64,000 nt of DNA from a virus. Lineage: Duplodnaviria > Caudoviricetes. Below the pieces are notes generated by a model. The model was not told where the DNA came from and did not search any database. It worked only from the letters and a program-made list of their open reading frames with translations. Positions within the stretch are counted from its first letter, which is position 1. Every line of letters begins with the position of its first letter. The stretch is taken from the IMG/VR virus record IMGVR_UViG_3300042010_000129, positions 1 through 64,000 of that record; one strand, given 5' to 3'. Made by a program: the position numbers and the translations under genes. Shown here piece by piece: positions 22,940 to 58,339 of the stretch.

Positions 22940-22944
22940 CGCGA

Positions 22945-22955
22945 AACTGTAAATC
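22945..22955 (+). promoter_or_regulatory. AACTGTAAATC motif
   Basis: Intergenic copy, immediately followed by a terminator hairpin. Confidence 0.45.
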
Positions 22956-22960
22956 AGAAT

Positions 22961-22991
22961 GGAAGGGCTACCCTGTGGCCCTTCCTTTTTT
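22961..22991 (+). terminator. Intrinsic terminator
   Basis: ggaagggc ... gcccttcc followed by T6. Confidence 0.8.
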
Positions 22992-23011
22992 CATTTCTGG
23001 AGCCTGTGCAT

Positions 23012-23467
23012 ATGATTCACCGCAAACGCAGCGAAAAAATCGAAAACATTTACATGGCGTTGGGCATGCTGGAAAAAGATCCGCGCCGTGAAAAATTCGA
23101 AATGGACATGACCCTCACTTCCCTAATCGGCCCGAACATCACGTTGAAAACTTCGCACTACGAAGCGATTATCACCGTTCCGTTCGAAGGGCAGATTGTC
23201 ATTCTCGAAATCGACGGGGCTAAGCAGCGCTTCGCTGATTACGCCGCGTTCCTCGAATTCTTCCTGCGCTCTTTGGAGCCTGCCCGCCCGGCTACCCTTG
23301 CCCTTGCTGCTGTAATGACCGATGGCACCCGCTTGGGCAACTCAGTGGCGTTTGAGCGCAACGGCGTGCGCTACCTGTGCGTTGAAAAAGACGGCCAGTT
23401 CGAAGTGCGTTACAACAACCAAATGATGGTAATGCCGCACGACGACATTGCCGCCGTTTTCGGCTGA
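23012..23467 (+). CDS. Hypothetical protein, ~151 aa
   Basis: GGAG upstream; start 23006 or 23012. Confidence 0.8.
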   Translation: MIHRKRSEKIENIYMALGMLEKDPRREKFEMDMTLTSLIGPNITLKTSHYEAIITVPFEGQIVILEIDGAKQRFADYAAFLEFFLRSLEPARPATLALAAVMTDGTRLGNSVAFERNGVRYLCVEKDGQFEVRYNNQMMVMPHDDIAAVFG

Positions 23468-23787: not shown

Positions 23788-25057
23788 CACTCTCCATCAC
23801 CTGTACGAAAAAGGAATTCTCAAAACGTGCGAACCAACGCATGATTTCGAGTCATATTCGTATGAGTACATGGGCCGACTGGTTAAGCAGCCCGTTACGG
23901 TTGGTACGCGTATGAAAAAATCAGACCTGTTGAATATCGTGCGCAGTGCGTGCGATGGAAACCTCGAAGACATGGCGACGGTTGCCATGCTTTACAACGT
24001 AGGCTTTGGCCTGCCGTTTGATCGTGATCGCGCAGTAGCGTGGATGCAATATTCGTTGGTGAACCCATCGAGCCAGTTCGACGCCGAATGTGAGTACGCG
24101 ATTAAATGCGCAGAGGAAGCGCCGGACGTTTCCTATCCGGACTCGCTGATTTATCCGTGTCTGGATATCGTGCGTAAAATTCACGATCATAAAAACACTG
24201 GCACCATTCGCAAAGGCTGTTCGGTTCTGCCGCGCTTTAAAGGCGTGCGCGTGTATTTGATTTATCGCACGCAGCCCGGCGTAACGCCGCATCTGTACGC
24301 AGGCTTTTATCACGACAAGGAGAATTATTTCCTTGCGCTGGATAAACTGGTTGCGTTGGGTGCGCCGCGCTATTTCGGTGAACTCCGGGGCCGCGTAACG
24401 ATTCCGGAATACACACCGTTCGGCCACAATGCGATGTATGTAATTGCTGGCACCGTTTACATTCCCGAATCGAAACGGAATGGCGACAAGATTAGCAAAG
24501 TGTTCAAAGAATTCCTGACGGATGAAACGCCGCAGCTGACACCGCAACACTTCAGCGTTGACGACACTGTTGCCATGCTGGAAGAGGCGCAGAAAACTGT
24601 AAATACTATTACACGGTCACAGAGCCGATTGGCGGAACAAGGTAAGGCCATTCCTTTGGAGTCGCTGCAACAATTGCAGAAGGCAAACAAACGAGTGGAT
24701 CAGCTTACGGCGCAGGTTAAGAACGCCAACCCGGAAGCCGAGTATCAAGCCTATCTCAAATCGCGCCCTGAAGCCCGTCTGCGCTTCGTTGCGACTGAAA
24801 TGTACCGCTGGAACCGGGACGGACTTAAAACCGTTCCAATGGGACGCCAGCAGCACCAGCAAATGCAATCGTTAGGGTTTCACAGCCTCACGCATCCAGC
24901 CCTCGAATTCGTTGGTCATGTCGCAGACACAACCGACGTGCGTGAAACTGTAAATAAATTCGAGAAGGCTATGGACGCAAAGGTATCTGCCTTAATCATT
25001 CAACCCGGCCCCGAATCGACGGTTCGGTTTGTAGACGTTACGAGGATTGATCTGTGA
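23771..25057 (+). CDS. SEL1-like repeat plus degenerate NAD-ligase adenylation-like domain, ~428 aa
   Basis: LYNVGFGLPFDRDRAVAWMQYS (SEL1-like); PRFKGVR, VIAGTVYIP, RLRFVA, QSLGF and VSALIIQ parallel LigA motifs. Confidence 0.8.
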   Translation: MQLLTSTLHHLYEKGILKTCEPTHDFESYSYEYMGRLVKQPVTVGTRMKKSDLLNIVRSACDGNLEDMATVAMLYNVGFGLPFDRDRAVAWMQYSLVNPSSQFDAECEYAIKCAEEAPDVSYPDSLIYPCLDIVRKIHDHKNTGTIRKGCSVLPRFKGVRVYLIYRTQPGVTPHLYAGFYHDKENYFLALDKLVALGAPRYFGELRGRVTIPEYTPFGHNAMYVIAGTVYIPESKRNGDKISKVFKEFLTDETPQLTPQHFSVDDTVAMLEEAQKTVNTITRSQSRLAEQGKAIPLESLQQLQKANKRVDQLTAQVKNANPEAEYQAYLKSRPEARLRFVATEMYRWNRDGLKTVPMGRQQHQQMQSLGFHSLTHPALEFVGHVADTTDVRETVNKFEKAMDAKVSALIIQPGPESTVRFVDVTRIDL

Positions 25058-25992
25058 GCAATGACATTTCGTACAACGAAGCACATGAGCAACAATTGAA
25101 ATCGAGCGAGCGCCAATTGGGCATCGCTACCGAACCGGAAAACGTTACACGCAACAAAGAAAATATTCCGGTTAAAGTTGCCGGTGAATTCCCGGTGCGG
25201 ATTGTGCCGCGTGTTGAAGTGGTATTCGGCGCCGTGCTGAATACTGTAAATGAAGTAATAGAACAGCACAAAACGCTGACGCCTTTGATCGGCCACGACA
25301 ACGGCGTAGTGGAAGAGGAAGACAATTCGGTTTCCCTCTACAGTCCGCTTTCGCGCAAATACAACGGCGCAGCATTGCAGCCGCTGGAATCGCTTTACGA
25401 ATTCCTTGCAGCCCTTGAGCTTGAGCAATATTTGATTGTCTGCGAAGACTCGGTATTGCAGCAGCGCATTCAAGGTCTGATCGACACCCTGCATTCGCAA
25501 TTGCAGGATACGTTCGGTGGCCCGGCCTTCGAACAACACGGCCTCGATTTTTCCGTGGCCCGCAGTGATTATTTCTCTACCAGCGTCACGCAGTACACGG
25601 TGGAAGAGAAAACTGTAAATAATATTCATCTGGTGATTCGTGTGTACATTCACGCGGCCAGCTTGACGAATACCCCTGACGATCCTGTCGAAGCTATTAA
25701 CAGCGCATTCGGTGCGCCATACCGGCAAGTGATCAAAAACTTCGCGACTGCAACCAAGATCAAAACTCAGATTGCAGTTGCATTTGATGTTTCTAATTTC
25801 ACTGTACGGCCTAACCTTCTGACTCTGTTCACCGCGCTTTGCGCAGAACCGGGCGCACAAGCGGACGCTGTAAACAAAGACGATCATATCGACGCAAACG
25901 TAATTGTTTCCGTCGCGCTGACAAACCCAAACGCCAAGGTGAAGACTGCCCCGAAAAAGGGTGTGGCACCGGCAAAACGCAAAGGTAGTTAA
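25054..25992 (+). CDS. Hypothetical protein, 312 aa
   Basis: GTGA overlap; contains two ACTGTAAAT copies. Confidence 0.8.
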   Translation: MSNDISYNEAHEQQLKSSERQLGIATEPENVTRNKENIPVKVAGEFPVRIVPRVEVVFGAVLNTVNEVIEQHKTLTPLIGHDNGVVEEEDNSVSLYSPLSRKYNGAALQPLESLYEFLAALELEQYLIVCEDSVLQQRIQGLIDTLHSQLQDTFGGPAFEQHGLDFSVARSDYFSTSVTQYTVEEKTVNNIHLVIRVYIHAASLTNTPDDPVEAINSAFGAPYRQVIKNFATATKIKTQIAVAFDVSNFTVRPNLLTLFTALCAEPGAQADAVNKDDHIDANVIVSVALTNPNAKVKTAPKKGVAPAKRKGS

Positions 25993-49635: not shown

Positions 49636-50652
49636 ATGTCACTAAACCTGACGCAGTTCAAATGGTTTCAGTATGACGAAAAAGCGGCGGAACTGGTTTT
49701 CGATCAGGATCGCCACAACGAAGACTACGTGCTGGAACTTCACCCCGGAAATATCTACGGTGTAAAGAAACGCGCACATGGCATTTTCGTCGTACACAAA
49801 AACAGTCCCGATATTCAGTTCTCGCTGAATGATCAGGAATACACGCGCATCGTTACGCACTCCAAAGGCTGGTCGGGAAAGATCAAACGCCAAGAAGTGA
49901 AAGCGGGCGTCGGTGGACTCGACAAACCAGTAACCGAACTGCCTGCCGGTTGGGTTCGGATGGAAGTCGATAGCTCCAACCTCAACACCGTTATTTACGA
50001 CAAGAAACGAAAAGTTTTGTACGTTGCATTCCACAACGGCGCGTCGTGGGCCTATGAGAATGTTTCGCTGAAAGAATACAAGGAAATGGAAGCCGCTGAA
50101 TCGCGTGGCCGTTTCTTTATTTACCGAATCAAATACGTGAAGCCTCAATACAAACTGGGGAACAACTTCGACCAGCCGCCGTATGACGTTGAGAAAACCA
50201 GTCCGAGTGTAATGCCTGTAAATCCAGCCGAGAAAAATAAACCGGTGGAAGAAAAATCTGTAAAGGAACCTAAGAAGACTGCGAAAAAACCGGCTGAAAA
50301 ACCGGGTCATGTAGCTTTGAAAGTTCCACGCGGCGCACTCGATAACTGGATGGGTTCCGAGGAAGGTTCGTTCGAAGATCACCACGTCGATAACAAACCT
50401 CCGGCCAAACACGTTTACAACCTGCTGAAGAGTGGCAAGATTGAAAGTGAGGAAGATATGTTCTCCCTCCTGAAATCTCTGAAAAACAATTCGCTGGTTT
50501 CCTACGATAAGCGCTCTTTCAACACCGCCGCTAAATCGTTGCTGTCCATTGCCGACCACTATCCGTTCTCGGAAAAAGGTTTGAAGGATTATAAACACGA
50601 CCGTGAACTGATCATGGAAATGATCAAGAAATCCGCACTCCATTTTATGTAG
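49636..50652 (+). CDS. KTSC-domain protein, 338 aa
   Basis: VDSSNLNTVIYD....LYVAFHNGASWAYENV...Y..M..AESRGRFF...IK. Confidence 0.85.
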   Translation: MSLNLTQFKWFQYDEKAAELVFDQDRHNEDYVLELHPGNIYGVKKRAHGIFVVHKNSPDIQFSLNDQEYTRIVTHSKGWSGKIKRQEVKAGVGGLDKPVTELPAGWVRMEVDSSNLNTVIYDKKRKVLYVAFHNGASWAYENVSLKEYKEMEAAESRGRFFIYRIKYVKPQYKLGNNFDQPPYDVEKTSPSVMPVNPAEKNKPVEEKSVKEPKKTAKKPAEKPGHVALKVPRGALDNWMGSEEGSFEDHHVDNKPPAKHVYNLLKSGKIESEEDMFSLLKSLKNNSLVSYDKRSFNTAAKSLLSIADHYPFSEKGLKDYKHDRELIMEMIKKSALHFM

Positions 50653-50659
50653 GAAGAAA

Positions 50660-51298
50660 ATGCCAATCCTAGCCGATGCACTGGTTGAACCAATCAAAGA
50701 AGACGAAGGCCGTTATTTGCAGATGATTGCAGACGGCGACCTTGAAGAGTCCGAGCCATTTGGTTTTATGGGAATCGGATACAAACTTTACGTGGGCACT
50801 GATCGTTATGTTCCGGGCCTGTCGAATTGTCGGTTGGTCGTCCTGTTCAAAGGCGAAGATTGTGTTTATTCCTGCTATTTCAAAATGGCGGAAAACCAAT
50901 ACTTCGGAAATCGCGTGGTGCAGGTTGAGGTTCGGCAGTCTCCAACGTTGCCGGGCCTTGCACGCTCCATGATGCGCAATTATTTCCTGCGTTTTTATGA
51001 TTCGATTCGCACGGATCTTTCAAGCACACCGCAAGGCCGCAATATGTGGCAGCAATTCTACACGGACTATCGGAAATCCGGTGACGTGTTTTTCTACCAA
51101 GGGTTGGTAAATATCGACCTGCGCAAATCGGACGGGTCGAATAATCAAGATGCATCCTGTCCAGAGGTGGTAACTCACTTGCGCGCCATGCGCAACGCCT
51201 GCACCGTACTGCGTGAAGGGATGTGGCACGACAATAAGCAGGGTAACGTTATTGTTATCTACGCATCCAACAAACCTCTATGGACAAAAGATCAATGA
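50660..51298 (+). CDS. Hypothetical protein, 212 aa
   Basis: AGGA SD; ATGA overlap with the portal gene. Confidence 0.8.
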   Translation: MPILADALVEPIKEDEGRYLQMIADGDLEESEPFGFMGIGYKLYVGTDRYVPGLSNCRLVVLFKGEDCVYSCYFKMAENQYFGNRVVQVEVRQSPTLPGLARSMMRNYFLRFYDSIRTDLSSTPQGRNMWQQFYTDYRKSGDVFFYQGLVNIDLRKSDGSNNQDASCPEVVTHLRAMRNACTVLREGMWHDNKQGNVIVIYASNKPLWTKDQ

Positions 51299-53235
51299 AA
51301 CTACGAAAAACGAACCGGGTTCCAATCGGTCAAGCGCCTGCTAATCGCGCCCCGCAAGCGATGGGTACTGCAAAGCAGTATTACCCGAAAACCAATCAGC
51401 AAAAGATCGACGATTATCTGGCAACGGCAGGCAGCGGCGGCAACGCGCAAATGTCTCAGATGCCTATCGAAATCGACATTGATCCGATGTTGAAAGATAT
51501 CGTGTTTTCCGAAGACCTTGAACAGAAAAAACTGGTCATGCGGATTTACACGGACATGTATTACAACGATTCCATCGGCGGTTCCATTGTCGATATCAAA
51601 TCGCAGCTGATGTTCTCCGACTTCACCATTTCCGGAATCATGGATCGCCGGGTGATGGATGATTTTATGGAAAACGTGGATCGTCTGGATATCCGCAACC
51701 TGATGCCCGACGTGGCAATCGACTACAACGTAAAAGGCGGTTTCATCGGATCGCTTTTGTACAACGAAAAATCGCAAGTGTTCTCGCGGATCATGCCGCA
51801 CGCTTACGAAAACACAAAGATCGACATGCTGCCTTTCCACGGCACCGATCCGCTGATCACTGTAGCGTTTCCCGAATACATCCGGGCGACCATGGCTTCC
51901 GATAGTCCGCGTGTAAAAGCACTGCGTGAATTCCTCGGCGCCGACGTGATGAAACAGCTTTCGAACGAAGCGCTGGAACTCGACCAGAAATCCACCGTTT
52001 ACGTTCCGCGCCGTTCTGGTTCCAGTTCAACCGGCACCAGTTATTATCGTCGAATCATGCCGTGGTATTTGCTGGAGAAAAACCTTTTCCGTGGCACGTT
52101 GGTACGAAGTGCAATGCGTCAAAAAGGTATTCTGCACGTAACGCTTGACGGCGCTGGCGAATGGGAACCGACACTGGCCGACATGCAGGCCGTGATGGAT
52201 ATGTTCATGAACGCCGATGCTGACCCGGTAGGCGCCGTGGTTGCAACGCGTGGCGGTATTTCCACTGAGGAAATTCGTGACCCACAAGGCGGTTGGACAA
52301 TCTTCGATAACAAAGACGCAATCGACTCGATTAAAATGAAAGCACTCGGAATTTCCGATGCATTCCTTTCGGGTGACGCGACTTATGCAAACGGCGATAC
52401 TTCGACCAGTTTCTTTATCGACGCAATTCGTACTGAACGTGATTGGCTGACCCGCAAGACTTTGTACAGCCGCATTTTCCCGATGATTTCCGCGTTGAAA
52501 GGCTACACGCTGAACCGCGACGGCAAATTGATTACTCGCGGTAACAGCCTCGACAAACTCGATCCAATGGGCAGCTTCGAACGACTCAACGACGGCACCC
52601 GTCTTTTGATTCCGACGATCCATTGGGAAAAGACTTTGCAGCCGGAAGGCGATCAGCAATACATGGATATGCTGCAAGCCATGTCGGATAAAGGCGTACC
52701 TGTTCCACTGCGCGTTATGGCGGCGGCTGGTGGCCTGAACCTTGACCGTTTGTTGGCCGGTCAGGATTCCGATTTGTTGGCGCAAGAATCGCTTTATCAA
52801 TACCAAAAGAAAATCAAAGATTTGAAAAAGAAATACGGTATTGATGACGCTGGCGATATGGGCGGCGGTGGCATGGGCGGTGGCGGTTTCGCTTCTACTG
52901 CATCCAGCTACGATCAGCAATTGATGCACATGGCCCGCACTAATCCCGGTTTGTTCGAAGCATTCCGCGCACAGGCACAATCCATTTATAACCAGAACCT
53001 CGACAATACGCATTCCGATGTATTGGCCCGCAACAATGGTCAAATCGTTGGTTTGGCGAATCGCCAATTCGGTGAAATGGGCGATGCTTACGGCTATTCG
53101 CATGACGGTAAAAAGAAACATTTGACCAATCAAAAGTTGGCGAAAGAACGTCAGAACGAAAAGATCGTTAAATTCCTTCGGGATCGTGATGCTCGTACCG
53201 GCGTCGGTGCAAAGCGTTCGCGCACTCGTTTGTAA
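51295..53235 (+). CDS. Probable portal protein
   Basis: ~650 aa, near TerL; GTSYYRRI and ALGISDAFLSG segments plus an overall pattern like myophage portals. Confidence 0.6.
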   Translation: MKLRKTNRVPIGQAPANRAPQAMGTAKQYYPKTNQQKIDDYLATAGSGGNAQMSQMPIEIDIDPMLKDIVFSEDLEQKKLVMRIYTDMYYNDSIGGSIVDIKSQLMFSDFTISGIMDRRVMDDFMENVDRLDIRNLMPDVAIDYNVKGGFIGSLLYNEKSQVFSRIMPHAYENTKIDMLPFHGTDPLITVAFPEYIRATMASDSPRVKALREFLGADVMKQLSNEALELDQKSTVYVPRRSGSSSTGTSYYRRIMPWYLLEKNLFRGTLVRSAMRQKGILHVTLDGAGEWEPTLADMQAVMDMFMNADADPVGAVVATRGGISTEEIRDPQGGWTIFDNKDAIDSIKMKALGISDAFLSGDATYANGDTSTSFFIDAIRTERDWLTRKTLYSRIFPMISALKGYTLNRDGKLITRGNSLDKLDPMGSFERLNDGTRLLIPTIHWEKTLQPEGDQQYMDMLQAMSDKGVPVPLRVMAAAGGLNLDRLLAGQDSDLLAQESLYQYQKKIKDLKKKYGIDDAGDMGGGGMGGGGFASTASSYDQQLMHMARTNPGLFEAFRAQAQSIYNQNLDNTHSDVLARNNGQIVGLANRQFGEMGDAYGYSHDGKKKHLTNQKLAKERQNEKIVKFLRDRDARTGVGAKRSRTRL

Positions 53236-53254
53236 TTTATTCATAGCAGCCAAA

Positions 53255-53265
53255 AACTGTAAATA
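53255..53265 (+). promoter_or_regulatory. AACTGTAAATA motif
   Basis: 5 nt before the 5' arm of the rod-shaped RNA. Confidence 0.65.
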
Positions 53266-53269
53266 ATGT

Positions 53270-53478
53270 ACAAGGAGTTGAGAAACGTTCGACACTAGCC
53301 AGACCAAAGGGTTGGGGATCGGGTAACGACGCTACGGGCTTAGCTGGCCATTACATGATAGTCGTTGCCCACTTGACCGATAATGATATGTGGAACGTTC
53401 TCTCAATTTCTCCTTTGTTCAGGCAAAGGTGGTACAACCCAACCGCGCCCTGTGAGCAATTGCACGGCGCGGTTTTTT
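53270..53478 (+). ncRNA. Candidate non-coding RNA: ~150-nt rod with central bubble, plus terminator
   Basis: 53270-53290 pairs with 53393-53418; 53321-53330 pairs with 53361-53370; bounded by motif and terminator; no credible ORF. Confidence 0.6.
53441..53478 (+). terminator. Intrinsic terminator
   Basis: aaccgcgcc ... ggcgcggtt followed by T-run. Confidence 0.85.
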
Positions 53479-53496
53479 CGTTTCTGGAGCCGAAAT

Positions 53497-53796
53497 ATGT
53501 GGGACGAATTAACATACGAAGAACAACTGAATTTTCTGATTGAATTGTGCGGAACATCTAGCGGATATCCGACGATTGATCACGAACTGGTTTTCCTGTG
53601 CGAAGCGGTATTGAATACCAAACAGCGCCGGGAATACGTGGATCATATGAGCGGCACAATTGCCGATCACACCTATCGCCGGATTGATCCTGAACACCCG
53701 GACGCCGCGACTCAGTATTACTTCAACATGATGCACGCTGCTGTTGAATTGCGTGCGAAAATGATTTGGTGCGCTGCGACAGGAAATCAACCGTAA
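53497..53796 (+). CDS. Hypothetical protein, 99 aa
   Basis: GGAG SD before MWDEL; TAATG overlap with the spike gene. Confidence 0.75.
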   Translation: MWDELTYEEQLNFLIELCGTSSGYPTIDHELVFLCEAVLNTKQRREYVDHMSGTIADHTYRRIDPEHPDAATQYYFNMMHAAVELRAKMIWCAATGNQP

Positions 53797-54572
53797 TGGC
53801 TGGTTCACCGCTTAACTCGACAAAGCATTTGCAACGGCAGGGCCTCGATTCGAAAATCATTCACGCGGGCGTTGTGGTTGATAACCTCGACCCACGAAAG
53901 AATGGCCGCGTGCGTGTGCGTATTCCCGGTATCTTTCCGGATGCAATCCCCGACAATCATTTGCCGTGGGCGTTGCCAATGAATCAGGACTACGCCACCG
54001 ACGACGATAAGCCTACGCGTTCCGGTTTTATCAACGTTCCGCCAGTCGGTGCAAAGGTTGGCGTTCGCTTTCCTAAAGGCGATCCGCACAAGCCGGAATT
54101 AGCGCCATATCCCGGTGATAAAAAGACGATTTCTTCGATTGCAAATACCAACTATCCGTTCCGCATGGTTATGGAATTGGAGAACGGTTGTGCAATTGTG
54201 GCCGACAAGAAAACGAACGAAGTATTCGTCACCAATCCGGGCGATGCTCACTTTGTTTTCCTCGGTGATTACAGCAAAACAATCGTTGGTTCCTGCACCG
54301 AAATCATCACTGGTTCGAAAGGCGATGTGCCCGGTTATTTGACCAATGCCAGCAATACCAAAATCAGCGAGATTCAAGAAAAGTCGGCTGGTGGTGTGAG
54401 CAAAGGCAAAGGCAATAAATTCGAAAAGATTACCGGCAATTACACGCTGGAAATCGGCGGCAATCGCATCGTAAAAGTGAACGGCAATGATCAATTAACT
54501 GTTGGCCGTAACCGTGATGAAAAGGTCGGCGGCAACCACAAAATTCAATCCTCCCGTTCTGATACGAACTGA
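53796..54572 (+). CDS. Baseplate spike, T4 gp5/VgrG OB-fold type (no lysozyme)
   Basis: GVVVDNLDPRKNGRVRVRIPG, LPWA, VPPVGAKVGVRFPKGDP; C-terminal beta-helix-like repeats. Confidence 0.85.
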   Translation: MAGSPLNSTKHLQRQGLDSKIIHAGVVVDNLDPRKNGRVRVRIPGIFPDAIPDNHLPWALPMNQDYATDDDKPTRSGFINVPPVGAKVGVRFPKGDPHKPELAPYPGDKKTISSIANTNYPFRMVMELENGCAIVADKKTNEVFVTNPGDAHFVFLGDYSKTIVGSCTEIITGSKGDVPGYLTNASNTKISEIQEKSAGGVSKGKGNKFEKITGNYTLEIGGNRIVKVNGNDQLTVGRNRDEKVGGNHKIQSSRSDTN

Positions 54573-56566: not shown

Positions 56567-57014
56567 ATACGGCCCCAGCCCAATTTTTACGGTCGTTGCT
56601 TCGGAGATTCCTAACTCGGGCAAACGACCAGACACACCGAAACCAGAAATAAACGAAGTGGGCGAATCGGCTTGCGTTACCGGGCTTTCCAGTCTGGCAC
56701 AGCGCCTGACACAGGATATTCTTGTGGCCCATGAGCGCGTGCATTACGGATTTCCAATGCCGCAATTTCTTTTGCTCGCCCATGAATCGGAATTCGATCA
56801 TCCAGACTTGGCGATTGCGCAGCAGCTGCACCAATATGTGGAATTTCGGGATATCACAATCGGTTATCCGCTGTCGATCAATGCATATTTGTATATCACT
56901 GATCCAGCGGCCTACGGATTGCCACGCGGCTTAACTGAGGAAGAGGTACTGAATAGTTTTCTTCGGAATTCTGTGCGGATTACCTACATCGTCAAGAATA
57001 CGGATTTAAAATAA
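56556..57014 (+). CDS. Hypothetical protein, ~152 aa
   Basis: Overlaps both neighbours. Confidence 0.7.
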   Translation: MGCEYGPSPIFTVVASEIPNSGKRPDTPKPEINEVGESACVTGLSSLAQRLTQDILVAHERVHYGFPMPQFLLLAHESEFDHPDLAIAQQLHQYVEFRDITIGYPLSINAYLYITDPAAYGLPRGLTEEEVLNSFLRNSVRITYIVKNTDLK

Positions 57015-58339
57015 TGGCAAACTATCGCTACATGGGTGAGCGTGACCTCGAATACACGGACGCCAGCGACGAATACGATCTGCATTTTGTGCAAGGTGAT
57101 TTGTTCACCATGTACCGCCACGGGCAGGTCTACATCGTTCAGCATTCCGACGCACCTGAAGTTATTTTCAAACTGAAATTGAAGCAGGGTAACGACCTGC
57201 ATAACATGAGCGAAGAGCTTTTGTCGGTCGAAACCGATCCGGACAATCCGCCGTACATGTTGTTCAAACCGTCGTTCGAAATGATGCCGTTGCTGTACGA
57301 TTATTTCAACCGCACTTATTTCAACGGCGAATGCCCGGTTGTGAAATTCCGCAAGACCACGAAAAGCAGTGTGTGGGGTATGGCGCAGCTGGAATGGCTC
57401 CGCAATAAACCGGTCTACACGTTCTTCGTGAACGAAAGTGCAATGATCGACCGCGTGTTGTTTTCGAACACCGTTCTGCACGAACAGATTCACCTTCGTA
57501 ACTTCGCGAAGGGTTACAAACTGATGGACATTGATCCAAGTTCGTCGAAAGATTATTTGCACGATGACCACGGCCCACATTTCCAAGACGAAATGCGCCG
57601 CCTGAATGCAAAAGGTTTCCACATTCTGCTGGCCGCAACGCACGAAGAATTCAAACGTGATGCATCGGAAGAATTCTACGCAATCGTTGCGCAGGAAACA
57701 GCCGGTGGGCGTGTGCTGTCGTGGAACGCGTGGTACACGGCGAAAGAACTTACCGCCGATGACACCGAACGTCTAGCCGGGCAGTTGAAGGAAATCAACC
57801 CGCATGCGGAATACACGATTAAACTGATCAAGACAAAAGATCGGAACGTGACGCACGCGAACCACATCAAAGGCACGAAAACGTTTACCGATTCGACGTT
57901 GAAAAAGAAAATCCAAGGCGATATCGACCTGAAGAACGCAGAGGTTTTGTACACGACCTATTTGCGTCCGTCGATTGCTGTGGAATTGCCTGATTACAAA
58001 GACGTGCCGGATCTGTACGCGTTGCCGCTGGAAAACTTCTACCGTTCCATGCGTAGCTACACCGATGACCGAATGGTGTTGCGCGCAAAATGGATGAAGT
58101 TTCCGGGCAAGCTTTTGAGTTCCCAAATCGACAAGAAGTTCAGCACCTTGATTGGTCGCATGGGCCGGGATTCGATCCACGACGATGATGTGGTAAACAT
58201 CTTGAACGATATCCGCGCAGCGTATGCGGATCGTTTTTCGTACCAACAATATGTGGACGCCATGCATGCGTTCATCAAGAAATATGATCGCAAAGGCCTG
58301 CTTGCAGAGTACGCCAAAATTATGCGACTGATTGCGTGA
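57014..58339 (+). CDS. SprT-like zinc metalloprotease
   Basis: YDYFNRTYF, WGMA, TVLHEQIHL (HExxH), HGPHFQ. Confidence 0.85.
   Translation: MANYRYMGERDLEYTDASDEYDLHFVQGDLFTMYRHGQVYIVQHSDAPEVIFKLKLKQGNDLHNMSEELLSVETDPDNPPYMLFKPSFEMMPLLYDYFNRTYFNGECPVVKFRKTTKSSVWGMAQLEWLRNKPVYTFFVNESAMIDRVLFSNTVLHEQIHLRNFAKGYKLMDIDPSSSKDYLHDDHGPHFQDEMRRLNAKGFHILLAATHEEFKRDASEEFYAIVAQETAGGRVLSWNAWYTAKELTADDTERLAGQLKEINPHAEYTIKLIKTKDRNVTHANHIKGTKTFTDSTLKKKIQGDIDLKNAEVLYTTYLRPSIAVELPDYKDVPDLYALPLENFYRSMRSYTDDRMVLRAKWMKFPGKLLSSQIDKKFSTLIGRMGRDSIHDDDVVNILNDIRAAYADRFSYQQYVDAMHAFIKKYDRKGLLAEYAKIMRLIA

What the first reader, a model, noticed from the sequence alone, without database searches (positions are those of the whole stretch)
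53255..53478. Promoter- and terminator-bounded rod-shaped ncRNA after the portal gene (6S-like or pRNA-like)
Seen: motif at 53255-65, then ACAAGGAG-TTGAGA-AACGTTC (53270-90) pairing with GAACGTT-C-TCTCAA-TTT-CTCC-TTTGT (53393-418). Inside is an asymmetric bubble (~53295-309 / 53379-88), then GGTTGG/TTGACC and GGGTAACGAC/GTCGTTGCCC stems. An alternative hairpin CCTTTG/CAAAGG (53412-29) competes with the closing stem, and an intrinsic terminator follows. There is no credible ORF. Known: 6S RNA is a rod with a central bubble that mimics an open promoter and sequesters sigma-70 RNAP, and phi29 pRNA is a small RNA of the packaging motor. Inference: a phage 6S mimic that would favour the phage sigma, or a packaging RNA. 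I see no primary-sequence match to host 6S.
Basis: partly seen in the sequence, partly recalled or inferred. Interest (0 to 1): 0.85.

Follow-up and report, generated by a model that had tools for sequence, protein, structure and literature searches.

The report
Structured RNA downstream of phage portal
A jumbo Pseudomonas-type phage carries, between its portal gene and its tail-hub genes, a roughly 150-base rod-shaped RNA fold that compensating mutations preserve in many relatives; it sits between a phage late-promoter motif and a terminator, and it is a new RNA family of unknown role, not a recognisable 6S or packaging RNA.

Summary
Window 53266-53478 folds into a closing stem (P1), an asymmetric conserved bubble, stems P2-P4, a small hairpin (P5) and an intrinsic terminator. 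A copy of the phage's recurrent AAACTGTAAATA promoter motif lies just upstream.

The window is a Lu11/HRDY3/PaBG-group jumbo phage. I collected 17 distinct homologues at the same locus. P1 forms in all 17, although its sequence differs completely between subgroups.

- Covariation: 29 of 50 pairs change on both sides and stay paired (0 of 500 shuffles reach this).
- Strand: 40 G-U cells against 3 A-C cells place the RNA on the + strand.
- Copy number: single copy in the window and in the one complete relative that has a match.
- Coding: no conserved ORF.
- Distribution: the rod is cleanly deleted in some close relatives that keep the promoter and terminator, so it is accessory.

It is not a member of the 6S family. 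It is very unlikely to be a phi29-type packaging RNA, and it shows no riboswitch-like antiterminator. Transcription could not be shown from public runs.

My best reading is a late, terminator-bounded accessory small RNA that also serves as the 5' leader of the hub operon and acts through its conserved bubble. A 6S-like mechanism remains possible but untested. The same stretch was noted once more by this scan in an overlapping window.

The parts
51280..53235 (+). portal gene (upstream neighbour)
   Evidence: phrog_16240 portal, E 5e-261; 86% aa identity to HRDY3 portal, 76% to Lu11, 52% to PaBG
53233..53239 (+). TAATTTA motif at or just after the portal stop codon, meaning unknown
   Evidence: Present at or just after the portal stop in every relative with a long spacer there, including the PaBG clade, whether or not it overlaps the stop codon. 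TAATTT is not enriched elsewhere in the window.
53253..53265 (+). phage late/middle promoter motif AAAAACTGTAAATA
   Evidence: Over-represented and strand-biased motif. Lu11 annotates the same site as a putative middle/late promoter. If spacing is like T4 late promoters (my own knowledge), the start site falls at about 53271-72, at the foot of P1. This is inferred, not mapped.
53268..53271 (+). P0 5' strand (GTAC), pairs with 53432-53435
   Evidence: Invariant 4-bp helix in the group A consensus. It may lie upstream of the real 5' end.
53274..53293 (+). P1 closing stem, 5' arm
   Evidence: 18 pairs. 16 of the 18 show changes on both sides across 8 sequences. P1 of 10-21 bp forms in all 17 homologues with unrelated arm sequences.
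53294..53309 (+). 5' strand of the central bubble, with conserved CAC and GCCA(G/A)(A/C)C
   Evidence: Conserved in sequence across groups A, B and C and not complementary to the 3' strand
53310..53316 (+). P2 5' strand, pairs with 53372-53378
   Evidence: 7 pairs with covariation (GGTTGGG/CTTGACC against GGCCGGG/CTTGGCC). The group C equivalent, P2a+P2b, has 54 of 60 and 26 of 30 cells paired, with several pair types.
53321..53331 (+). P3 5' strand, pairs with 53360-53370; preceded by the conserved GAU(C/A) bulge at 53317-20
   Evidence: 11 pairs, 9 with changes on both sides
53337..53349 (+). P4 apical hairpin (GGCT-TAGCT-GGCC); the apical region varies in length between groups
   Evidence: Group C carries 30-50 extra nt here.
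53360..53378 (+). 3' strands of P3 and P2
53379..53389 (+). 3' strand of the central bubble, with the conserved A-T-A-N-T-G-A motif starting at the edge of P2
   Evidence: The motif is present in nearly all 17 homologues, 8-11 nt before P1'
53390..53410 (+). P1 closing stem, 3' arm
53412..53429 (+). P5 hairpin CCTTTG/CAAAGG, almost invariant in sequence
   Evidence: Kept almost letter for letter in groups A, B and C, with no changes on both sides
53441..53478 (+). intrinsic terminator: 13-bp two-part stem, GCAA loop, T6
   Evidence: The sequence is nearly identical in relatives down to about 70% portal identity. The exact pattern occurs once per contig in 15 viral contigs and once in the window.
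53479..53496 (+). translation initiation region CGTTTCTGGAGCC...ATG of the next gene
   Evidence: The same T-run/TTTCTGGAG module follows other terminators in the window, for example at 22987
53497..53796 (+). downstream 99-aa gene, followed by the gp5-like baseplate hub (53766-54572)
   Evidence: ORF conserved in all relatives; hub matches phrog_430 and PF04717

Best explanation
This is a genuine RNA element read from the + strand, and it is a new family specific to Lu11/HRDY3-like jumbo phages. It sits inside a promoter-terminator cassette. The cassette starts at the phage's own late/middle promoter motif, presumably read by host core RNA polymerase carrying the phage sigma factor encoded at 33592-34605. 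Transcription would start at about the foot of P1. Termination at the strong hairpin 53441-78 would release a compact RNA of about 205-210 nt: rod, P5, terminator. Read-through would place the same fold at the 5' end of the mRNA for the 99-aa gene and the baseplate hub. I read the rod as an accessory RNA gene, an 'RNA moron', inserted into a pre-existing promoter-terminator-RBS cassette. I propose that it acts in trans as a protein-binding or decoy RNA. The specificity would lie in the sequence-conserved central bubble and the invariant P5/terminator, while the helices serve only as scaffold. Shown here: the fold, its covariation, its strand, its single copy, its synteny, its presence/absence pattern and the flanking signals as motifs. 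Inferred: that it is transcribed, where its ends are, and that it acts in trans. The partner is unknown; RNA polymerase holoenzyme is one candidate.
For: - Fold: z = -4.06.
- Covariation in the MAFFT alignment of 4 close relatives: 97.5% of cells paired, 11 pairs changed on both sides against 5.0 +/- 1.5 in shuffles, 0 of 500 shuffles as high, and the signal collapses when partners are slid by one column.
- Covariation in 8 sequences from three subgroups: 95.7% paired, 29 pairs changed on both sides, P1 16 of 18, P3 9 of 11.
- P1 forms in all 17 homologues with unrelated arm sequences. P2 of the third subgroup also covaries.
- Strand: 40 G-U cells against 3 A-C cells, which is 95.7% paired on + against 85.1% if read on -.
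- Promoter motif directly upstream and terminator directly downstream.
- Phage sigma homologue: 51% identity to PaBG gp118, with a Sigma70_r2 match. The PaBG paper predicts a sigma-70-like factor gene and reports no phage RNA polymerase subunits in the passages I read (PMC7412058).
- Accessory nature: L008-L011 and L082 (portal 87-89% identical) keep promoter, terminator and RBS but lack the rod and P5. A rod-less promoter-terminator-RBS cassette also exists at window 22944-23014.
- Single copy: once in the window and once in complete genome G002.
- No conserved ORF.
Against: - No transcript evidence. The public runs that hold the sequence are DNA or ambiguous, stored as contigs, and show no enrichment over neighbouring genes.
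- The downstream essential genes have no promoter motif of their own after the terminator. The terminator must therefore be read through, and the fold is also a 5' leader, so a purely cis role fits the position equally well.
- In the PaBG clade a long-stem element occupies the same place, but the promoter motif lies after the terminator and the interior differs. Homology and a common mode of expression are therefore uncertain.
- No binding partner can be named from sequence.
Confidence: 0.4

Rival explanations
1. Cis-acting leader or 3'-UTR element. The fold modulates the fate of the messages that carry it. It could protect the 5' end, be processed by RNase III in the 17-21 bp P1, tune read-through at the terminator, or insulate the portal transcript from the hub operon. 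No free RNA would have a function.
For: It lies between the only visible promoter motif and the RBS of the next operon, so read-through mRNAs must carry it. P1 is long enough for RNase III. In the PaBG clade the positional equivalent lies in the portal 3' UTR, upstream of terminator and promoter. Promoter-terminator-RBS cassettes are a recurrent design in this genome.
Against: Close relatives express the same essential genes from the same cassette without the rod, so it is not needed for read-through or expression. A simple processing or stability hairpin would not need a sequence-conserved 16/11-nt bubble, a conserved GAU bulge and an invariant P5. No alternative pairing with the terminator exists.
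Confidence: 0.3
2. Functional analogue of 6S RNA. The rod mimics an open promoter and binds RNA polymerase holoenzyme, either host sigma-70 or the phage-sigma form. P1 would be the downstream duplex, the bubble the melted region, and P2-P3 the upstream arm.
For: The topology and polarity match the published definition of 6S: a rod of about 200 nt with a central bubble between a closing stem and an apical stem, and recognition elements in the 3' bubble strand and the apical arm (PMC8876501). The conserved 3'-bubble motif N-A-U-A-N-U starts at the edge of the upstream helix and lies 8-11 nt from P1. By my own knowledge this resembles the spacing of a -10 element in an open complex. The phage replaces the host sigma.
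Against: No match to Rfam 6S in the window or in four complete relatives, while controls are found. In real E. coli 6S the 3' bubble strand is not TATAAT-like, so that resemblance is not a 6S trait. The bubble is not significantly similar to the phage's own promoter. Trapping holoenzyme would also trap the core enzyme the phage needs. The element is dispensable in close relatives.
Confidence: 0.15
3. Riboswitch or attenuator. The rod is a ligand- or factor-sensing aptamer that controls formation of the terminator.
For: The order promoter, P1-closed structured domain, terminator, RBS is the classic layout.
Against: The terminator's 5' arm finds no better partner upstream than in shuffled sequence (z about 0 in 15 of 17; the site differs between homologues). 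No Rfam riboswitch hit. In the PaBG clade the promoter lies after the terminator.
Confidence: 0.05
4. phi29-type packaging RNA, or a DNA-level signal (cruciform, pac site or origin) placed next to the portal gene.
For: Only the position beside the portal gene and the long inverted repeat.
Against: No Rfam pRNA hit. The packaging enzyme is a large terminase; by my own knowledge such motors use no RNA. No conserved loop-loop complementarity was seen by eye. The 40:3 excess of G-U over A-C pairs argues for an RNA of one strand, not a DNA cruciform. The element is absent from close relatives that must still package DNA.
Confidence: 0.04

Closest known systems
Bacterial 6S RNA (SsrS, Rfam RF00013)
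   Same: Rod-shaped RNA of comparable size with a closing stem, a large central bubble and an imperfect apical stem. Helices drift while the shape is kept. The source is a system that switches sigma factors.
   Different: No covariance-model match. The gene sits inside the leader of an operon rather than standing alone. It is followed by an extra hairpin and a terminator. The bubble strands are sequence-conserved within the family. It is dispensable in close relatives. Binding to RNA polymerase is untested.
Lambda PR'-tR' late leader ('lambda 6S' transcript) and HK022 put RNAs (from my own knowledge)
   Same: A promoter followed within about 200 nt by a strong terminator, directly upstream of late structural genes, so that a short terminated RNA and a read-through mRNA share a 5' end. 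put RNAs are structured and lie promoter-proximal.
   Different: No Q-like or put-like sequence or two-hairpin architecture was recognised. Rod-less relatives keep the cassette, so the rod is not required for read-through.
T7 RNase III processing sites and lambda sib (from my own knowledge)
   Same: Intergenic hairpins with an internal loop between phage genes; P1 is long enough to be a substrate.
   Different: Much larger and multi-helix, with a 16/11-nt conserved bubble. It lies between a promoter and a terminator rather than simply between cistrons.
phi29 pRNA (Rfam RF00044)
   Same: Phage-encoded structured RNA of 120-170 nt whose ends form a helix.
   Different: No model match. The packaging machinery is of a different kind (large terminase). 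No conserved intermolecular loop pairing was seen. The gene's position next to the portal has no counterpart in phi29.
Phage 'morons' (accessory genes with their own promoter and terminator between conserved genes; from my own knowledge)
   Same: An insertion/deletion polymorphism between two conserved structural genes, flanked by a promoter and a terminator.
   Different: The cargo is an RNA fold, not a protein gene, and it shares its promoter with the downstream operon.

Membership tests
6S RNA (RF00013) | Match to the family covariance model | tested here: not met
   No hit at gathering score in the window. No hit at E<=10 on 53100-53600. 0 of 4 complete related genomes match, while control genomes do. 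E. coli ssrS scores 139.8 bits with the same tool.
6S RNA (RF00013) | Rod with a central bubble between a closing stem and an apical stem | tested here: met
   P1, a 16/11-nt bubble, then P2-P3-P4, supported by covariation; definition taken from PMC8876501
6S RNA (RF00013) | Discrete stable transcript of about 180-200 nt | tested here: inconclusive
   Promoter motif and terminator predict about 205-210 nt, but public runs give no usable RNA evidence
6S RNA (RF00013) | Binds sigma-70-type holoenzyme and templates product RNA | not testable with these tools
   Needs EMSA and in vitro transcription
phi29 pRNA (RF00044) | Match to the family model | tested here: not met
   No Rfam hit of any family except a chance miRNA match on the terminator
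phi29 pRNA (RF00044) | phi29-type packaging motor that needs an RNA ring | tested here: not met
   The phage has a 975-aa large terminase (phrog_17415) and a portal of the Lu11/PaBG type
phi29 pRNA (RF00044) | Two loops with intermolecular complementarity that covary | tested here: inconclusive
   Short complementarities between the 5' bubble strand and the apical loop exist in some members but are not conserved. This was inspection only, with no formal test.
Transcription-attenuating riboswitch or leader | Alternative (antiterminator) pairing that competes with the terminator | tested here: not met
   The best duplex between the upstream RNA and the terminator 5' arm is no better than in shuffles, and its site is not conserved
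Processive antiterminator RNA (put-like) | Needed for read-through of the downstream terminator | tested here: not met
   Relatives L008-L011 and L082 keep promoter, terminator and downstream genes without the rod. This is comparative, not experimental, evidence.
RNase III processing site | About 20 bp or more of near-continuous duplex | tested here: met
   P1 of 15-21 pairs in most members; cleavage itself is not testable here

The most novel reading that the evidence does not exclude
The rod is a phage-encoded open-promoter mimic, a functional analogue of 6S RNA that evolved independently. Made in bulk late in infection, it would capture RNA polymerase holoenzyme through its conserved bubble, with P1 as the downstream duplex, and so shift transcription between host-sigma and phage-sigma programmes. 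To my knowledge, and in one literature search, no virus-encoded 6S-type regulator has been described.
Probability: 0.15. Interest if true: 0.9.

Novelty: new variant of a known kind. Interest (0 to 1): 0.6.

Why it matters
Structured non-coding RNAs of jumbo phages are almost unexplored. This one has several properties that make it a clean candidate for a new functional RNA class.
- It has unusually clear comparative support: 17 distinct natural variants, compensatory changes in most pairs and an identified strand.
- It has a defined genomic address.
- Natural deletion alleles show it is accessory.
- It can be studied in cultivable phages (Lu11 and HRDY3 on Pseudomonas).

If it binds RNA polymerase, it would to my knowledge be the first viral 6S-type regulator. 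If it binds another host or phage protein, it would add an RNA decoy to the list of phage takeover or counter-defence tools. If it is purely cis-acting, it documents an unusual promoter-fold-terminator-RBS design for late operons.

Tried and rejected
- Rfam, all families, on the window and sensitively on the locus: nothing except a chance miRNA hit on the terminator.
- 6S model on four complete relatives: nothing.
- tRNA/tmRNA scan: none.
- Strand assignment by folding energy or z-score alone was ambiguous: the + strand is better in 11 of 17, and composition biases the energies. Pair-type counts settled it.
- 3' bubble strand as a copy of the phage's own promoter: not better than shuffles. Rejected.
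- The TATAAT-like look of that strand as a 6S trait: rejected, because E. coli 6S has no such sequence there.
- Antiterminator pairing: none.
- Targets complementary to the 5' bubble strand elsewhere in the window: none.
- P1/P5 competition, and the GGTTGGG/CCCAACC and AGAAACG/CGTTTCT pairings: present only in the window's subgroup, so not treated as functional.
- TAATTT as a general genome motif: not enriched.
- RNA evidence from public runs: the 'RNA-Seq' wastewater libraries hold scattered low-depth contigs across the phage, probably DNA. The contig over the rod is not distinctive (one search failed).
Model R1 is therefore narrow, and it misses Lu11 and most of subgroup C.
- The metagenome scan with the portal profile added only one new locus.
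- Hairpin-ribozyme, Y-RNA and k-turn resemblances that I noticed by eye were not conserved across subgroups and had no Rfam support.

Full report
**Context**

The window is part of a jumbo phage. The genes around the finding are a 975-aa large terminase, a KTSC protein, a hypothetical protein, the portal (51280-53235), a 99-aa protein (53497-53796), a gp5-like baseplate hub and tail-fibre proteins. The portal is 86% identical to that of Pseudomonas phage HRDY3, 76% to Lu11 and 52% to PaBG. No whole genome is held for the window.

The PaBG paper predicts a sigma-70-like factor gene in this phage group (PMC7412058). The window encodes its homologue at 33592-34605, with 51% identity to PaBG gp118 and a Sigma70_r2 match.

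**Observation**

The 262-nt spacer folds at -89.4 kcal/mol, z = -4.06, and 0 of 200 shuffles fold as well.

The upstream motif belongs to a recurrent phage motif, (A)AAACTGTAAATA. It has 12 exact copies of the 9-mer in 64 kb, 11 of them on the coding strand, mostly just before genes. Lu11's authors annotated the same site as a putative middle/late promoter. The downstream hairpin plus T-run is a strong intrinsic terminator. It runs straight into the ribosome-binding region of the next gene.

**Relatives**

The spacer is syntenic and of similar size in three named phages: 253 nt in HRDY3, 265 nt in Lu11 and 211 nt in PaBG. Each folds far better than its shuffles.

BLAST finds only the terminator/RBS end conserved at the DNA level. 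The rod is kept as a shape, not as a sequence.

I collected 17 distinct versions of the element, using portal-anchored searches of viral and metagenome contigs and look-ups of contigs that encode portal homologues. They fall into these subgroups:
- Group A: window, L005, L006, L080.
- Group B: HRDY3, L012.
- Lu11.
- Group C: L013, L016, L084, L085, L086, L088, L089, L090, L018, L093.

The sequences are shown.

**Architecture**

The elements, in order, are:
- the promoter motif;
- P1, a closing stem of 10-21 pairs;
- a central bubble;
- P2;
- a GAU(C/A) bulge;
- P3;
- a variable apical part with P4;
- the return strands;
- P5 (CCTTTG/CAAAGG);
- a short linker;
- the terminator;
- TTTCTGGAG and the ATG of the next gene.

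The bubble's 5' strand carries CAC and GCCA(A/G)(A/C)C. Its 3' strand carries A-U-A-N-U-G-A followed by 8-11 nt.

**Is the structure selected?**

In the sequence-based (MAFFT) alignment of group A, 97.5% of 200 cells pair. Eleven pairs change on both sides, against 5.0 +/- 1.5 in shuffles (0 of 500 as high). Sliding the partners by one column drops pairing to about 45-50%.

A covariance model built from group A (R1) finds group B at E about 1e-12. It finds two group C members weakly, at the right place. On that 8-sequence alignment, 95.7% of cells pair and 29 of 50 pairs change on both sides. This includes 16 of 18 pairs in P1 and 9 of 11 in P3. That alignment is fitted to the model, so it leans towards the structure.

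P1 forms in all 17 homologues, although the arms are unrelated between groups. In group C the P2 equivalent pairs in 54 of 60 and 26 of 30 cells, with several pair types per position.

**Strand**

Energies and z-scores alone were ambiguous. The helices, however, hold 40 G-U cells against 3 A-C cells, which gives 95.7% paired on the + strand against 85.1% on the - strand. The selected molecule is therefore an RNA in the sense of the surrounding genes, not a DNA cruciform or an antisense RNA.

**Coding**

No ORF is conserved. The longest ORFs differ in strand, frame and peptide between homologues.

**Distribution**

The element is single copy. R1 hits once in the window and once in complete genome G002. 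The terminator pattern occurs once per contig in 15 viral contigs and once in the window.

It is also accessory.
- L008-L011 and L082 (portal 87-89% identical) keep TAATTT, the promoter motif, the terminator and the RBS, but lack the rod and most of P5. The junction looks like a deletion ending inside P5.
- L019/L022, L028, L091 and L094 have 4-10 nt between portal and the next gene, and L092 has only a 40-nt spacer without the rod.
- Given the portal identities, the rod is most simply ancestral to the Lu11-like clade and was lost several times. This is an inference; I built no tree.

A rod-less promoter-terminator-RBS cassette also exists elsewhere in the window, at 22944-23014. The cassette is therefore a normal design in this genome, and the rod is an insert within one copy of it.

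In the PaBG clade (L003, L048, L051, L021, L023) a long-stem element with a perfect 15-20 bp closing helix occupies the same place. Its interior is different, and the promoter motif lies after the terminator. Homology with the Lu11-type rod is unproven.

**What it is not**

- Not a member of the 6S family. There is no Rfam hit in the window or in four complete relatives, while controls are found. E. coli ssrS scores 139.8 bits with the same tool.
- Very unlikely to be a phi29-type pRNA. There is no model hit, and the packaging enzyme is a large terminase.
- Not a terminator/antiterminator switch. The terminator's 5' arm has no conserved upstream partner.
- The bubble is not a copy of the phage promoter.

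**What it most likely is**

The motif-predicted start falls at the foot of P1, assuming spacing like T4 late promoters. The terminator follows P5 by about 12 nt. Termination would therefore give a compact RNA of about 205-210 nt with both ends structured, and read-through would give the hub-operon mRNA with the same 5' fold. The helices evolve freely. The bubble strands, the GAU bulge, P5 and the terminator are conserved in sequence.

Together with the presence/absence pattern, this fits an accessory RNA gene that acts through sequence-specific recognition of its unpaired parts, that is, a protein-binding or decoy RNA. I give this 0.4.

The main rival is a cis-acting role on the messages that carry it, through stability, RNase III processing or tuning of read-through. 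I give this 0.3. The rod-less relatives argue against it. So do the conserved bubble, bulge and P5, which a simple processing hairpin would not need.

**The 6S-like mechanism**

The published definition of 6S is a rod with a central bubble, a '-10-like' element in the 3' bubble strand, a '-35-like' region in the apical arm, and product RNA templated from the 5' bubble strand into the closing-side helix (PMC8876501). This maps onto the present fold without contradiction.

The conserved N-A-U-A-N-U at the upstream edge of the 3' bubble strand, 8-11 nt from P1, is reminiscent of a -10 element in an open complex. That resemblance is recalled knowledge, not a test. Real E. coli 6S shows no such sequence. 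Sequestering holoenzyme would also cost the phage its core enzyme. I put this mechanism at 0.15.

**Expression**

Public runs holding the sequence are soil, rhizosphere, plant, food and wastewater metagenomes. The few 'RNA-Seq' libraries show scattered low-depth contigs over the phage and no peak at the rod. Transcription therefore remains unproven.

**Unexplained**

- Why P5 and the terminator are nearly invariant, and the terminator unique in each genome, while neighbouring coding sequence diverges.
- What the TAATTT(A) motif after the portal stop means.
- What role the extra conserved block has between TAATTT and the promoter in group C.

**Verdict**

This is a real, well-supported new structured RNA family in Lu11-like jumbo phages. 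Its family assignments are not supported, and its mechanistic idea remains open.

Noticed in passing
window 22944-23014: A second promoter-terminator-RBS cassette: GAAACTGTAAATC, then the hairpin GGAAGGGC...GCCCTTCC with a T-run about 6 nt later, then CATTTCTGGAGCC and ATG. The same T-run/TTTCTGG module follows terminators at about 9862 and 18780. A promoter placed directly upstream of a terminator seems to be a regular design in this genome. How read-through is achieved is unknown.
   Followed up: partly
window, whole (for example 9882, 16506, 17891, 24597, 24948, 25613, 26615, 34600, 35451, 41251, 53257): The motif (A)AAACTGTAAATA is strongly over-represented and strand-biased: 12 exact copies of the 9-mer, 11 on the + strand. 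Several copies lie inside ORFs (for example 24597-25613), not only before genes.
   Followed up: partly
window 33592-34605: Homologue of the PaBG gp118 sigma factor: 51% identity, with only a Sigma70_r2 Pfam match at 27 bits. A copy of the promoter motif overlaps its stop codon at 34600.
   Followed up: partly
L013:4430-4500, L018:4224-4300 and relatives (group C loci): Group C spacers carry an extra conserved block of about 60 nt between TAATTT and the promoter motif. It includes a small hairpin followed by a T-rich run and an invariant GGCAATCCATCGC(C/T)GG. Its function is unknown.
   Followed up: no
proteins P0002, P0016, P0017, P0026, P0055 and others (portal homologues of about 1100 aa): Several relatives have portal proteins about 460 aa longer than the window's, with intein and homing-endonuclease Pfam domains (PF14528, PF14890). 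This indicates inteins inserted in the portal gene in some lineages. The window's portal has none.
   Followed up: no
window 49636-50652 and 57014-58339: Both proteins start with a KMPT-N domain (PF20294). One continues with KTSC and the other with an SprT-like metalloprotease domain.
   Followed up: no
L003:4340-4550, L048, L051, L021, L023 (PaBG-clade loci): At the same position after the portal gene these more distant phages carry long-stem elements with perfect 15-20 bp closing helices that covary between PaBG and L048. They are followed by a terminator and only then by the promoter motif. They may be a diverged or an independent RNA at the same address.
   Followed up: partly
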